From a virus (taxonomy: Duplodnaviria; Heunggongvirae; Uroviricota; Caudoviricetes), in IMG/VR virus record IMGVR_UViG_2706794671_000007: DNA of 6,610 nucleotides, one strand, 5' to 3'. Below, piece by piece: positions 1-6,610 of the stretch. Positions within the stretch are counted from its first letter, which is position 1; each line of letters begins with the position of its first letter. Under the pieces are notes generated by a model, which saw only the letters and a list, made by a program, of their open reading frames with translations, was not told the origin of the DNA and made no database searches. The position numbers and the translations under genes are program-made.

Positions 1-102
1 GTCTGGGGAATATCTCCCCGGCAGCCTTCAGGGAAAAATATCATCAGATGGCTGCTTAAAAAAAGAACAAATGGTAGTGTCCGCTATTGCCAGTACACCT
101 CA
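1..102. repeat. Left arm of a perfect 102-bp terminal inverted repeat (reverse complement of 6509..6610)
   Basis: Base-by-base comparison: the reverse complement of 6509..6610 equals 1..102 exactly; identity breaks at position 103 versus 6508. The repeat carries open coding frame (frame 2, no stops). Confidence 0.9.
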
Positions 103-479: not shown

Positions 480-820
480 CGACTTTTACCAGAGAGCAGT
501 TAATAGCTCACGCAGAGGAGACTATTGAAGCACAGAGACTGTGCATACCGGGCACAATCGACCATGACATCATCCGCACATATAAGATGGATATTGCTGT
601 TCTGGAAATCGCACTGGTATCGCTGGCAGCAGAGCCAGCCGGTAAATTGCATGAATACAAACCAGTGGGATATCAGCGTCTGGTCGATGAGTTAACCATG
701 CTGGTAAAGCAGTTAACCTGGCAACTGAGGAAAGCGAAGCCAGACTGCAAATTACCGGATAAGGCGATGAGTTATCTGGAGCGGAACGGACTGATAAGCG
801 TGGAGGATATTTTACGATGA
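476..820 (+). CDS. Hypothetical phage protein, 114 aa; tandem paralogue of the 55-aa ORF
   Basis: ORF-track ORF. ATG overlaps the upstream stop (ATGA at 476..479). The N-terminus [10 protein letters not shown] and motif [12 protein letters not shown] parallel the upstream protein. Its stop TGA 818..820 overlaps the ATG 817..819 of a following mini-ORF. Confidence 0.65.
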
Positions 821-900
821 CCTGGCCTGAAGCATTAACAACGGTAGGAATTGCGATGGCGGTGGCGCTGGTGGTGTATTCGATTTGCCGCTGGGGATAA
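817..900 (+). CDS. Candidate 27-aa hydrophobic (single transmembrane-like) peptide [27 protein letters not shown]
   Basis: ATG 817 overlaps the upstream stop (ATGA). GGAGGA at 802..807 sits 9 nt upstream. The hydrophobic core [13 protein letters not shown] is followed by basic/aromatic CRWG; stop TAA 898..900. Not in the ORF track (too short). Confidence 0.4.
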
Positions 901-907
901 AAACGGT

Positions 908-935
908 TTGCGGGAAAAGGAGAGTTAAGTAGAAT
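908..935 (+). promoter_or_regulatory. Candidate sigma70 promoter for the hok mRNA (-35 TTGCGG 908..913, 16-nt spacer, -10 TAGAAT 930..935)
   Basis: Hexamers read directly. The predicted transcription start near 942 coincides with the GGGTGCTTGAGG element (942..953) that is complementary to the mRNA 3' region (see findings). Confidence 0.4.
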
Positions 936-981
936 TGCAGCGGGTGCTTGAGGCTATCTGTCTCAGGCATGAACACCAAAA

Positions 982-1063
982 GGCAGATAGAGAAAAGCCC
1001 CAGTTAACATTACGCGTCCGGCAAGACGCTTAACATTAATCTGAGGCTCAATCTATGAACGGC
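982..1063 (-). ncRNA. Candidate Sok-like antisense RNA of the hok locus (approximate ends); candidate promoter on the minus strand -35 TTGCCT (1098..1093), 17-nt spacer, -10 TAACCT (1075..1070)
   Basis: In hok/sok loci the antisense RNA is transcribed opposite to the mok leader and start region. A minus-strand promoter-like pair of hexamers lies inside the mok-like N-terminal extension and points toward the mok SD/start at 1043..1057. The 3' end is not defined by a clean terminator, so coordinates are approximate. Confidence 0.3.
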
Positions 1064-1111
1064 AAATCTAGGTTAGCCTCTTACGTGCCGAAAGGCAAGG
1101 AGAAGCAGGCT

Positions 1112-1267
1112 ATGAAGCAGCAAAAGGCGATGTTAATCGCCCTGATCGTCATCTGTTTAACCGTCATAGTGACGGCACTGGTAACGAGGAAAGACCTCTG
1201 CGAGGTACGAATTCGAACCGGCCAGACGGAGGTCGCTGTCTTCACAGCTTACGAACCTGAGGAGTAA
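1112..1267 (+). CDS. hokD: Hok-family type I toxin, 51 aa, matching HokD/RelF (MKQQKAMLIALIVICLTVIVTALVTRKDLCEVRIRTGQTEVAVFTAYEPEE); an in-frame upstream ATG at 1055 gives a 70-aa mok-like overlapping frame
   Basis: Internal Met of ORF-track ORF 1055..1267. AAGGAG at 1097..1102 sits 9 nt upstream of ATG 1112. The peptide has the Hok/Gef architecture (N-terminal transmembrane helix, conserved C-terminal region) and matches HokD of the K-12 Qin prophage as I recall it. The ATG at 1055 has its own SD (GAGG 1043..1046). Confidence 0.85.
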   Translation: MKQQKAMLIALIVICLTVIVTALVTRKDLCEVRIRTGQTEVAVFTAYEPEE

Positions 1268-1335
1268 GAGACCAGGCGGGGGAGAAATCCCTCGCCACCT
1301 CTGATGGGTCAGGCATCCTCAATGCACCCACACTT

Positions 1336-1362
1336 AACCCGCTTCGGCGGGTTTTTGTTTTT
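1336..1362 (+). terminator. Rho-independent terminator ending the hok mRNA
   Basis: Stem CCCGC (1338..1342), loop TTCG, stem GCGGG (1347..1351), followed by TTTTTGTTTTT. Confidence 0.75.
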
Positions 1363-4102: not shown

Positions 4103-4107
4103 CAAGG

Positions 4108-4135
4108 TTGATTTTTCCGGAATCTGTGGTAAATT
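4108..4135 (+). promoter_or_regulatory. PR'-like late promoter and qut region (-35 TTGATT 4108..4113; extended -10 TGgTAAATT, hexamer 4130..4135)
   Basis: Lies 6 nt after the Q stop. The -10 TAAATT and the downstream AACGATGGG (4142..4150) resemble the lambda PR' / 6S RNA start region as I recall it. Confidence 0.5.
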
Positions 4136-4182
4136 CGTCATAACGATGGGCGTTTTATGCCTGACGTTAGAAGAGTTTCTAC

Positions 4183-4208
4183 AACCCGCCGCCGAGCGGG
4201 TTTTTTAT
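4183..4208 (+). terminator. tR'-like rho-independent terminator downstream of the late promoter (target of Q antitermination)
   Basis: Stem CCCGC (4185..4189), loop CGCCGA, stem GCGGG (4196..4200), then TTTTTTAT. Lies about 60 nt downstream of the predicted PR' start. Confidence 0.6.
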
Positions 4209-4326
4209 GACTGAAATCGCGTCAGTACAGTAAACGCGCTGGTGGCGGTGAATACCTGTCTTTCAGCTTGCTGGCTTTTTCGACAAGAGTTATTGGTGTG
4301 TCACGTTAACCGGAAAAGGAAAAGAC

Positions 4327-4524
4327 ATGCTAAAACAGCAGGATATGACAGAAACCGCCAGAGTGGTGTTTAATGAATTAAGCGTTACCGAACCGGCGAC
4401 AGTCGGGGAGATAGCGCAGAATACTTACCTTTCACGCGAACGCTGCCAGTTAATACTGACCCAGCTGGTTATGGCGGGTCTGGCAGACTATCAGTTCGGT
4501 TGTTACAGACGCCTTCCGCAGTGA
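4327..4524 (+). CDS. Small putative winged-helix / HTH DNA-binding protein, 65 aa
   Basis: ORF-track ORF. SD AAGGA at 4316..4320 with 6-nt spacing. The segment TVGEIAQNTYLSRERCQLILTQLVMAGL looks like a helix-turn-helix recognition region (by eye). Followed by its own terminator. Confidence 0.55.
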   Translation: MLKQQDMTETARVVFNELSVTEPATVGEIAQNTYLSRERCQLILTQLVMAGLADYQFGCYRRLPQ

Positions 4525-4538
4525 AGGCTTTTTTATTT
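4511..4538 (+). terminator. Rho-independent terminator overlapping the stop codon of the 65-aa gene
   Basis: Stem GCCTTC (4511..4516), loop CGCAGT, stem GAAGGC (4523..4528), followed by TTTTTTATTT. Confidence 0.65.
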
Positions 4539-5773: not shown

Positions 5774-5849
5774 GGCCCTTTAGCTCAGTGGTGAGAGCGA
5801 GCGACTCATAATCGCCAGGTCGCTGGTTCAAATCCAGCAAGGGCCACCA
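5774..5849 (+). tRNA. tRNA with anticodon CAT, most likely tRNA-Ile2 (lysidine type, ileX/ileZ-like) rather than tRNA-Met; 76 nt including CCA
   Basis: Cloverleaf folded by hand: acceptor GGCCCTT / AAGGGCC, D-arm GCTC-AGTGGTGA-GAGC, anticodon arm AGCGA-CTCATAA-TCGCC (CAT at positions 34..36), T-arm GCTGG-TTCAAAT-CCAGC, discriminator A plus CCA. Closely resembles E. coli ileX as I recall it. Confidence 0.85.
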
Positions 5850-5890
5850 TCACATACCGCCATTAGCTCATCAGGAAAGAGCGCCAGCCT

Positions 5891-6176
5891 NNNNNNNNNN
5901 NNNNNNNNNNNNNNNNNNNNNNNNNNNNNNNNNNNNNNNNNNNNNNNNNNNNNNNNNNNNNNNNNNNNNNNNNNNNNNNNNNNNNNNNNNNNNNNNNNNN
6001 NNNNNNNNNNNNNNNNNNNNNNNNNNNNNNNNNNNNNNNNNNNNNNNNNNNNNNNNNNNNNNNNNNNNNNNNNNNNNNNNNNNNNNNNNNNNNNNNNNNN
6101 NNNNNNNNNNNNNNNNNNNNNNNNNNNNNNNNNNNNNNNNNNNNNNNNNNNNNNNNNNNNNNNNNNNNNNNNNNNN
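5891..6176. other. Scaffold gap: 286 consecutive N
   Basis: Unbroken run of n characters. Any ORF crossing it is an artefact and the true content and length are unknown. Confidence 0.99.
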
Positions 6177-6300
6177 GAATCCCCCTGTGCGGAGGGGCAA
6201 TCAGCGAGTAGGTATATGGGATAATCGCGGATTCAGGTGCTGGTACTGAATTCACCGGGAGGCACCCGGCATCATGCAATGGCACATAGCGCCACTCTCC

Positions 6301-6324
6301 AGCCCTCTCCGGAGGGGCTTTTCT
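6301..6324 (+). terminator. Candidate rho-independent terminator
   Basis: Stem CCCTC (6303..6307), loop TCCG, stem GAGGG (6312..6316), followed by GCTTTTCT. Confidence 0.45.
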
Positions 6325-6508
6325 GTGCCGGATACATCACAGTTTCTGGAACCTTAGGTACTACAGTATCAGTCAGGGTGCTATATTTTCAGATGTGATG
6401 AAAGCCTGTCAGCAGGCAGGGCGTATCGGAAATGACCCAGTAGAGAAAACGTTGACTCAGATACCGGTGCTGAGTTACCGGGAAACCGGCATCACATGAC
6501 CGCTATCC

Positions 6509-6610
6509 TGAGGTGTACTGGCAATAGCGGACACTACCATTTGTTCTTTTTTTAAGCAGCCATCTGATGATATTTTTCCCTGAAGGCTGCCGGGGAGATA
6601 TTCCCCAGAC
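6509..6610. repeat. Right arm of the perfect 102-bp terminal inverted repeat (reverse complement of 1..102)
   Basis: See feature 1..102. Confidence 0.9.

What the first reader, a model, noticed from the sequence alone, without database searches (positions are those of the whole stretch)
908..1362. Apparently intact hok/sok-type type I toxin-antitoxin locus with 5'-3' fold-back complementarity
Besides the Hok toxin ORF (1112..1267) the locus retains the regulatory architecture expected of a functional hok system: a promoter-like sequence at 908..935; an in-frame upstream start at 1055 with its own SD (mok-like, 70 aa); a minus-strand promoter-like element (1070..1098) positioned to make an antisense Sok-like RNA across the mok translation-initiation region; and a terminator at 1336..1362. 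The predicted 5' end GGGTGCTTGAGG (942..953) is complementary to CCTCAATGCACCC (1317..1329) just upstream of the terminator (12 bp with a single bulged U). That is the tac/fbi fold-back pairing that keeps full-length hok mRNA translationally inert. K-12 chromosomal hok loci are reported to be inactivated by rearrangement or IS insertion, so a complete copy is notable.
Basis: partly seen in the sequence, partly recalled or inferred. Interest (0 to 1): 0.5.

Follow-up and report, generated by a model that had tools for sequence, protein, structure and literature searches.

The report
Intact prophage hok/sok toxin-antitoxin locus
This is a complete copy of the well-known hok/sok killer-peptide and antisense-RNA module, sitting in a fragment of a lambda-like prophage; complete copies like it occur in about 70% of finished E. 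coli genomes, so it is real but ordinary.

Summary
Window 908-1362 holds a structurally complete hok/sok-type type I toxin-antitoxin locus:
- a Hok ORF (Pfam HOK_GEF, E 3e-23; 100% identical to K-12 HokD);
- an in-frame mok leader ORF;
- a convergent Sok gene, whose promoter and 5' end align with K-12 sokC and with the experimentally validated sokW;
- a terminator.

Folding reproduces the three canonical hok mRNA states:
- tac/fbi lock with the mok SD sequestered by ucb;
- tac/ucb with SD/dcb after 3' trimming;
- the metastable 5' hairpin.

Fifty loci from several genera show the classic coupled covariation at position 945.

The claim that a complete copy is notable fails. At least 80% of the locus is present in 3824 of 5426 complete E. 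coli genomes. Of 80 IMG/VR contigs encoding the identical toxin, 74 have the full tac-to-fbi architecture. The locus is 92.8% identical to hokW-sokW of Stx2 prophage Sp5, which has been shown experimentally to be a working toxin-antitoxin pair. K-12's truncated hokD is the exception, not the rule.

Verdict: already known, low interest. Expression and killing were not testable here.

The parts
908..935 (+). hok/mok mRNA promoter: -35 TTGCGG (908-913), 16-nt spacer, -10 TAGAAT (930-935)
   Evidence: Read from the sequence. It aligns with the hokC and R1-type promoter region. It is below the scanner threshold at 8/12, which fits the weak constitutive hok promoter of the R1 model. Inferred, not shown.
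942..1362 (+). full-length hok mRNA, about 420 nt; 5' end at 942 or 943 by alignment to the R1-type 5' end GGCGCUUGAGG
   Evidence: The Rfam RF01794 match starts exactly at 942. Fold energy -169.2 kcal/mol, z = -6.6. Alignment.
942..953 (+). tac (translational activator element), the 5' arm of three alternative helices
   Evidence: Pairs with fbi in the full-length RNA, with ucb after 3' shortening, and with 961-970 in shorter RNAs. Position 945 covaries with both its fbi and its metastable partner.
961..970 (+). 3' arm of the metastable 5' hairpin that pairs with tac in nascent RNA
   Evidence: Formed in folds of 942-1310 and 942-1300. 94.8% of cells are paired in 50 loci, with U-A to C-G in 14.
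995..1002 (+). ucb (upstream complementary box, anti-SD of mok)
   Evidence: Pairs with mok SD 1042-1048 in the full-length fold and with tac 942-949 in the 942-1316 fold. Pairs are conserved in 50 loci.
987..1063 (-). Sok-like antisense RNA, about 72-77 nt: a 14-nt single-stranded 5' tail (GCCGUUCAUAGAUU), a long terminator hairpin, then UUUUCU
   Evidence: The 5' end was placed by alignment to the annotated K-12 sokC; the 3' end by GGGGCTTTTCTCTAT, which is shared with sokC. Fold -29.9 kcal/mol, z = -5.1. It carries a 15-16-nt extension of the hairpin relative to sokC and R1. Transcription was not tested.
1042..1048 (+). mok Shine-Dalgarno region (GAGG at 1043-1046)
   Evidence: Sequestered by ucb in the full-length fold and paired with dcb after shortening.
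1055..1267 (+). mok leader ORF (70 aa), in frame with hok
   Evidence: Same arrangement as K-12 mokC/hokC (shared stop) and MokW of VT2-Sakai. 89% identical to MokW.
1070..1098 (-). sok promoter: -35 TTGCCT (1098-1093), 17-nt spacer, -10 TAACCT (1075-1070)
   Evidence: Aligns with the sokC and R1-type sok promoters. 1070-1099 is identical to the hokW probe YO-597. The sokW -10 was inactivated by mutation in PMC8621323.
1075..1080 (+). dcb (downstream complementary box)
   Evidence: Pairs with mok SD 1043-1048 in the fold of 942-1316. Conserved in 50 loci.
1098..1102 (+). hok Shine-Dalgarno (AGGAG)
   Evidence: Sequence. Nearly invariant in the 50-locus alignment.
1112..1267 (+). hok toxin ORF, 51 aa, identical to K-12 HokD
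   Evidence: Pfam PF01848 E 3e-23. PHROG 251 'MokW-like host killing' E 2.8e-33. 51/51 identical to HokD.
1250..1253 (+). TACG at Tyr47: the TadA A-to-I editing motif that would recode Tyr to Cys
   Evidence: Sequence. Motif and its conservation are described in preprint 10.1101/2025.08.07.668861. Nearly invariant in the 50 loci. Editing was not tested.
1317..1329 (+). fbi (fold-back inhibitory element)
   Evidence: Pairs with tac at probability 0.90-1.00. 91.2% of cells are paired in 50 loci, with U-A to C-G in 13.
1336..1362 (+). intrinsic terminator of hok mRNA (stem-loop 1336-1353 plus T run)

Best explanation
[quoted passage not shown] It sits in the early (nin-like) region of a lambdoid prophage fragment, with the gene order hok, rem-like ORF, an unnamed ORF, DUF968/ydfU, rusA, Q.

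Most likely mechanism, taken from the R1 model; every step below is inferred here from sequence and folding, none from expression data.
1. A weak promoter (908-935) makes a stable mRNA of about 420 nt starting at 942/943.
2. During transcription, tac is held in a metastable hairpin with 961-970.
3. In the finished RNA, tac pairs with fbi (1317-1329) and ucb (996-1002) covers the mok SD. The RNA is then neither translated nor bound by Sok.
4. Slow 3' trimming removes fbi. tac then pairs with ucb and the mok SD pairs with dcb, which gives the translatable, Sok-accessible form.
5. Ribosomes that translate mok from 1055 open the hok start at 1112.
6. A short-lived antisense RNA runs from 1063 to about 990. 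It is made from a promoter at 1098-1070 on the minus strand. Its 14-nt single-stranded 5' tail covers the mok start and SD and blocks mok, and therefore hok.
7. Hok is a small inner-membrane peptide that kills or lyses the cell once Sok is lost.

The likely biological role in a prophage is to help lysis and phage release on induction, as shown for hokW-sokW, and/or to stabilise the element.
For: - Family models: Pfam HOK_GEF and Rfam RF01794 at 112 bits.
- Toxin: identical to HokD. HokD is reported toxic when expressed (preprint).
- Folding: all three alternative pairings of tac appear in thermodynamic folds of RNAs with different 3' ends.
- Covariation: position 945 covaries with both its fbi partner (U-A 32, C-G 13) and its metastable partner (U-A 33, C-G 14). 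It is the unpaired position in the tac/ucb helix. 0 of 500 shuffles reach the observed covariation scores for the tac/fbi plus ucb/SD set and for the metastable helix. The slid-partner controls give far fewer paired cells for all three structures.
- Sok: promoter, start and terminator align with the annotated sokC and with the R1-type sok. The -10 region is identical to that of sokW, whose mutation released toxicity.
- No visible defects: the window differs from the majority of 65 related loci at 18 positions. None is private, and none lies in a promoter hexamer, tac, the core of ucb, a start codon, the hok SD or the terminator.
- Precedent: hokW-sokW, 92.8% identical, is a working toxin-antitoxin pair and doubles phage release after mitomycin C.
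Against: - No expression data exist for this copy. Transcript ends, 3' processing, Sok half-life and killing are all inferred.
- Both promoters are weak by consensus and were missed by the scan.
- Native chromosomal hokA, hokB and hokC loci were reported not to give post-segregational killing or rifampicin activation (cited in the preprint). Structural completeness therefore does not guarantee activity.
- The prophage piece is bounded by IS600 ends on both sides. The element may be a non-inducible remnant, in which case the lysis-helper role would not apply.
Confidence: 0.9

Rival explanations
1. The locus is structurally complete but physiologically silent. It is kept by hitch-hiking with the prophage and never produces enough Hok to matter, as reported for native chromosomal hokA, hokB and hokC.
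For: - Chromosomal hok loci were reported not to mediate post-segregational killing and not to be activated by rifampicin (preprint citing Pedersen and Gerdes).
- Both promoters are weak by consensus.
- Tyr47 is encoded as TAC rather than Cys. By analogy with hokB, full toxicity may require TadA editing.
Against: - The three alternative tac helices are strongly conserved, with compensatory changes across genera.
- No element is damaged.
- The 92.8% identical hokW-sokW is active from its native prophage position.
- A single chromosomal copy of R1 hok is lethal without Sok (PMC9841398).
Confidence: 0.2
2. The locus acts mainly on prophage induction. Read-through from the early phage promoters runs in the hok-sense direction. 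It silences the convergent sok promoter and makes 5'-extended hok RNA that lacks a free tac end, so Hok helps lysis. Post-segregational killing would be secondary.
For: - sokW RNA vanishes and HokW appears after mitomycin C in a RecA-dependent way, by a mechanism the authors leave open.
- In the window the upstream and downstream ORFs are on the hok strand, and no terminator was found between 800 and the hok promoter.
- In 74 related viral loci the longest flanking ORF is co-oriented in 56 of 74 upstream and 68 of 70 downstream cases. This is a crude ORF-based count.
Against: - This is pure inference; there is no transcript mapping.
- The co-orientation count rests on unannotated ORFs.
- The window's prophage piece is cut by IS600 at position 103, so it may have lost its early promoters.
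Confidence: 0.3
3. The locus serves as abortive-infection defence against superinfecting lytic phages: host transcription shut-off depletes Sok and releases Hok.
For: [quoted passage not shown]
Against: The same preprint found no enrichment of hok near defence systems (section heading). The R1 effect was modest and seen at high copy number. Nothing in the window bears on this idea.
Confidence: 0.1
4. The complementarity and promoter-like motifs are chance features around a stray hok ORF.
For: The promoter scan did not call either promoter.
Against: - Chance of the tac/fbi match is 3.4e-4.
- Fold z = -6.6.
- Rfam E 9.7e-26.
- Covariation in 50 loci.
Confidence: 0.01

Closest known systems
hokW-sokW (with mokW) of Stx2 prophage Sp5 / phage VT2-Sakai, E. 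coli O157:H7 Sakai (PMC8621323)
   Same: - 92.8% nucleotide identity over window 908-1339.
- 70-aa in-frame Mok, 89% identical, and a 51-aa Hok.
- Identical sok promoter region, 1070-1099.
- The same tac, ucb, dcb and fbi elements.
- The same conserved small ORF upstream.
- Lambdoid prophage setting.
   Different: - Four of the last 7 Hok residues differ (TAYEPEE here, VDYESEK in HokW).
- The Sok 5' tail and mok-start segment differ (probe YO-592).
- Homology ends before the terminator.
- In Sp5 the locus follows ea22/DUF551-type genes near one end of the phage map. Here it lies upstream of rem, ydfU, rusA and Q.
hokD (relF) of the Qin cryptic prophage, E. coli K-12
   Same: Identical toxin. 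Near-identical coding sequence, 3' UTR, fbi and terminator. Same downstream neighbours: rem, ydfU, Q.
   Different: In K-12, homology starts only near window 1095. The hok promoter, tac, ucb, mok start and sok gene are replaced by relBE. The window keeps all of them.
hokC/mokC/sokC (gef) of E. coli K-12
   Same: Same leader architecture with an almost identical tac and 5' hairpin. mok is in frame with hok. The annotated sokC aligns with the window's minus strand.
   Different: The toxin is 50 aa and diverged. The Sok hairpin lacks the 15-16-nt extension. In K-12, IS186 lies 20 nt after the hokC stop, which removes fbi and the terminator.
hok/mok/sok (parB) of plasmid R1, the paradigm
   Same: All the named elements and the refolding pathway described in PMC9841398 have counterparts here.
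   Different: - HokW, whose 51 aa are identical to the window's Hok apart from four of its last seven residues, is reported to share 44% identity with R1 Hok.
- In R1, mok is in the +1 frame relative to hok (ATG at 116 and 174); here it is in frame.
- The 5' hairpin loop and the Sok hairpin differ in length.
- R1 hok/sok is on a plasmid; this locus is in a prophage.

Membership tests
[quoted passage not shown] | Small hydrophobic Hok/Gef toxin ORF | tested here: met
   Pfam PF01848 E 3e-23, 81.6 bits against a cut-off of 22. 100% identical to HokD.
[quoted passage not shown] | Overlapping mok leader ORF with its own SD, starting about 57 nt upstream of hok | tested here: met
   ATG at 1055 and GAGG at 1043-1046. 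The offset is 57 nt in most of the 50 related loci, and 56 or 58 in some.
[quoted passage not shown] | Conserved hok mRNA leader | tested here: met
   Rfam RF01794: 112.4 bits against a gathering score of 59, full model length, on the + strand at 942-1117.
[quoted passage not shown] | Long-range tac/fbi pairing between the 5' end and the 3' UTR | tested here: met
   Present in the minimum-free-energy fold at probability 0.90-1.00. Chance 3.4e-4. 91% of cells paired, with compensatory changes, in 50 loci.
[quoted passage not shown] | ucb/mok-SD pairing in the full-length RNA, switching to tac/ucb plus SD/dcb after 3' shortening | tested here: met
   Folds of 942-1362 and 942-1316. Pairs are 85-98% conserved per helix, with a both-sided change at two pairs of the ucb/SD helix and none in the tac/ucb and SD/dcb helices.
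[quoted passage not shown] | Metastable 5' hairpin with coupled covariation | tested here: met
   Folds of 942-1310 and 942-1300. Column 14 covaries with both of its partners.
[quoted passage not shown] | Convergent Sok gene overlapping the mok initiation region, with its own promoter and terminator | tested here: met
   Met at the sequence level only: alignment to the annotated sokC, the R1-type sok and the sokW promoter, and a hairpin fold with z = -5.1.
[quoted passage not shown] | Sok RNA is made and is unstable; hok mRNA is processed at its 3' end; loss of Sok kills the cell | not testable with these tools
   Needs Northern or RNA-seq data, a rifampicin chase and genetics. Shown for R1 and in part for hokW-sokW.
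hokD/hokW prophage branch | HokD/HokW-type toxin and leader inside a lambdoid prophage | tested here: met
   92.8% identity to the VT2-Sakai locus. Same neighbours as Qin and the GF4 prophage. RusA, Q and DUF968 domains.
isrK sRNA (Rfam RF01394) | Score at or above the family's gathering threshold | tested here: not met
   25.7 bits against 50 for 1276-1357. Only the two hairpins resemble the model.

The most novel reading that the evidence does not exclude
Among loci that encode exactly the same toxin, the only strongly variable part of the mRNA leader is 1048-1067. This segment holds the mok start and the target of the Sok 5' tail. It shows 17 alleles in 75 loci, and the window's allele is one of the recurrent ones (7 of 75).

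This could reflect diversifying selection for mutually orthogonal Sok specificities, which would keep the several hokD-type copies co-resident in one genome from cross-protecting one another. In both genomes I could check, the co-resident copies carry different alleles. That sample is far too small to test the idea.
Probability: 0.3. Interest if true: 0.4.

Novelty: already known. Interest (0 to 1): 0.1.

Why it matters
It matters little as a discovery, because this is a textbook system in its usual setting.

The practical value is for annotation:
- RefSeq labels such loci only as 'hokD' coding sequences and omits mok, Sok and the mRNA elements.
- Rfam's 'sok' model hits the sense strand.
- K-12's truncated hokD gives a misleading picture of what is normal.

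The locus also adds one more natural allele of the Sok recognition segment for anyone studying cross-talk among prophage hok/sok copies.

Tried and rejected
- The consensus promoter scan found neither the hok nor the sok promoter. Their placement rests on homology instead.
- Plasmid R1 itself (KY749247) is not in the plasmid collection. I used an IncFII plasmid that encodes a Hok identical to the R1 Hok sequence as I recalled it from memory. Its mok region differs from the R1 numbering in PMC9841398: mok is in frame there but +1 in R1. It is therefore R1-type, not R1.
- The Rfam isrK and rsmX matches to the 3' UTR are below threshold and were rejected.
- I considered whether the in-frame mok is abnormal. 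It is not: 57-nt (in-frame), 58-nt and 56-nt offsets all occur among relatives, which fits the view that translation of mok, not its product, is what matters.
- I tried to test whether co-resident copies carry different Sok-tail alleles. Only two genomes with three full copies each were available, so the test has no power.
- I checked whether the window's copy carries private defects. It has none.

Full report
**What is there**

The window is a piece of a lambdoid prophage. Its genes on the + strand are:
- three small phage ORFs of unknown function;
- the hok locus;
- a rem-like ORF and an unnamed 94-aa ORF;
- a DUF968/HNH protein (ydfU-like);
- RusA;
- an antiterminator Q;
- a DNA methylase;
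- a tRNA.

The same order (hokD, rem, DUF968, rusA, Q) is annotated in E. coli GF4. In reduced form it also occurs in the Qin prophage of K-12.

**Check of the observation**

The 51-aa ORF at 1112-1267 is a Hok/Gef toxin (Pfam E 3e-23). It is 51/51 identical to K-12 HokD.

An in-frame ATG at 1055, with GAGG 8 nt upstream, gives a 70-aa mok-type leader.

Rfam's RF01794 matches 942-1117 over its full length at 112 bits. The match is on the + strand, so it models the hok mRNA leader rather than the antisense RNA.

The terminator at 1336-1353 was called by the scan. Neither promoter was: they score 8/12 and 7/12 against consensus.

The 5'-3' complementarity is real:
- In the minimum-free-energy fold of 942-1362, positions 942-953 pair with 1329-1317, with U1323 bulged. 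Pair probabilities are 0.90-1.00.
- The RNA folds 6.6 standard deviations better than shuffles.
- A complement of that quality arises in 3.4e-4 of shuffles.

**Anatomy and mechanism**

Folding RNAs with different 3' ends reproduces the three states of the R1 model summarised in PMC9841398.
1. Full length: tac (942-953) pairs with fbi (1317-1329), and ucb (996-1002) pairs with the mok SD (1042-1048).
2. RNA ending at 1316, that is without fbi: tac (942-949) pairs with ucb (995-1001), and the mok SD (1043-1048) pairs with dcb (1075-1080).
3. Shorter RNAs: tac (944-953) pairs with 961-970, which is the metastable hairpin.

On the minus strand, TTGCCT (1098-1093), a 17-nt spacer and TAACCT (1075-1070) align with the sok promoters of K-12 sokC and of an R1-type plasmid. 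The annotated 5' end of sokC aligns with window 1063.

The predicted Sok has three parts: a 14-nt single-stranded 5' tail complementary to 1050-1063 (the mok start), a long hairpin, and GGGGCUUUUCU (z = -5.1). The hairpin is 15-16 nt longer than in sokC or R1. All close hokD-type relatives share this extension.

**Comparative evidence**

I aligned 50 distinct loci from Escherichia, Shigella, Kluyvera, Citrobacter, Pseudocitrobacter, Pantoea, Erwinia and Photorhabdus, plus the R1-type plasmid.

| Helix | Cells paired | Variation |
|---|---|---|
| tac/fbi | 91% | window 945: U-A in 32 loci, C-G in 13 |
| metastable hairpin | 95% | window 945: U-A in 33 loci, C-G in 14 |
| tac/ucb | 98% | essentially invariant; 945 is its unpaired position |
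| mok SD/dcb | 87% | essentially invariant |

This is the coupled covariation known for the hok family. From my own knowledge it was described by Gultyaev, Franch and Gerdes in 1997; I did not retrieve that paper here. Partner-sliding controls drop pairing to 27-68%.

The mok-hok offset is 57 nt (in frame) in most loci, and 58 or 56 nt in others. In R1 it is 58 nt. An in-frame mok is therefore normal for this branch. K-12 mokC/hokC and MokW have the same arrangement.

**Is this copy intact?**

Against 65 distinct related loci the window differs from the majority base at 18 positions. Each of those variants is shared with other loci. None lies in a promoter hexamer, tac, a start codon, the hok SD or the terminator. 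No defect is visible.

**Is it notable?**

No.
- At least 80% of 880-1400 is found in 3824 of 5426 complete E. coli genomes, with a median of two places per genome. The feature is annotated hokD. K-12's truncated hokD would cover only about half of that query.
- Of 80 IMG/VR contigs that encode the identical toxin, 74 carry everything from tac to fbi. Only 3 show the K-12-type break near 1093-1098.
- 74 phage records and 256 plasmid records also hold at least 80% of the locus.
- The locus is 92.8% identical to hokW-sokW of Sp5/VT2-Sakai.

For hokW-sokW, published experiments show toxicity of HokW, neutralisation by sokW from its own promoter, loss of sokW and appearance of HokW after mitomycin C in a RecA-dependent way, and a two-fold gain in released phage (PMC8621323). 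A 2026 preprint catalogues 44,248 Hok homologues and reports enrichment in prophages.

- hokD homology to the window starts near 1095, with relBE upstream.
- hokC has IS186 20 nt past its stop codon.

But K-12 is the exception.

**What remains uncertain**

Nothing here shows that this copy is expressed. Native chromosomal hokA, hokB and hokC were reported not to give post-segregational killing.

Homology to E. coli prophages runs only from 103 to about 6510. The terminal 102 nt at each end are inverted copies of an IS600 end. The element may therefore be a remnant, and a lysis-helper role would then be moot.

A plausible but untested idea concerns the unexplained loss of sokW on induction. Early-operon read-through in the hok-sense direction could silence the convergent sok promoter. 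Flanking ORFs are mostly co-oriented with hok (a crude count).

**Verdict**

The novelty claim is not supported: this is an already known system in its usual setting.

Noticed in passing
window 1-102 and 6509-6610: The two ends of the window are perfect 102-nt inverted copies of each other. They match the end of IS600, an IS3-family element. Prophage homology in complete E. coli genomes runs only from 103 to about 6510. The 6.4-kb prophage piece is thus bounded by two inverted IS600 copies, or the contig ends run into that repeat. The first ORF (71-301) is a chimera across the junction.
   Followed up: yes
window 817-900 (+): An unannotated 27-codon hydrophobic ORF ([27 protein letters not shown]) overlaps the stop of the upstream ORF (ATGA) and ends 8 nt before the hok -35. 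It keeps exactly 27 codons in 28 of 31 related loci, including diverged versions such as MNWPEAFAITGVAMAIAFLVYVICRWG. It is also present upstream of hokW in Sp5 (primer YO-432). It has no PHROG or NCBIfam match.
   Followed up: partly
window 1048-1067: The mok-start and Sok 5'-tail segment is the hypervariable part of the leader. Mean minority fraction is 0.19-0.25, against 0.11 or less elsewhere in the leader, in 65 distinct loci that encode the identical toxin. There are 17 alleles, and the window's allele occurs 7 times in 75. This may be a specificity determinant under diversifying selection; that was not tested.
   Followed up: partly
window 1250-1253: The Tyr47 codon TAC is followed by G, which forms the TadA A-to-I editing motif TACG. 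Editing would recode Tyr to Cys. The motif is nearly invariant in the 50-locus alignment, and a few loci hard-code Cys instead. It is described for hokC, hokD and hokE in the 2026 preprint.
   Followed up: partly
window 942-1117: Rfam family RF01794, named 'sok antitoxin', matches the hok-sense strand. The real Sok gene is on the other strand, at about 987-1063. Automated annotation with this model would place 'sok' on the wrong strand and make it too long.
   Followed up: yes
window 1276-1357: The hok 3' UTR (hairpin, fbi and terminator) gives a sub-threshold match to the Salmonella prophage sRNA family isrK: 25.7 bits against a gathering score of 50. Only the two hairpins align. It could be chance or distant relatedness of prophage sequences at the same map position.
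   Followed up: partly
window 5774-6330: A tRNA-Met-type gene (anticodon CAT) lies at 5774-5849. It is followed by the start of what looks by eye like a second tRNA, cut by a run of 286 N (5891-6176). An STnc100 sRNA match (69.8 bits) at 6148-6330 has its 5' part inside the N run. This region is a scaffold gap.
   Followed up: no
window 4103-4210 and 4511-4528: Intrinsic terminator-like hairpins lie just downstream of the Q gene (4183-4202) and after the 65-aa ORF (4511-4528). The first is placed like the terminator of the short late-promoter transcript on which Q acts in lambdoid phages. That reading is my inference.
   Followed up: no
L068 (phage Rac MN652886), L018-L020, L021 and other relatives: Close relatives of the locus have mok in all three frames relative to hok: offsets of 57, 58 or 56 nt, giving Mok of 64-72, 55-68 or 19 aa. 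This natural variation supports the view that translation of mok, not its product, is what matters.
   Followed up: yes
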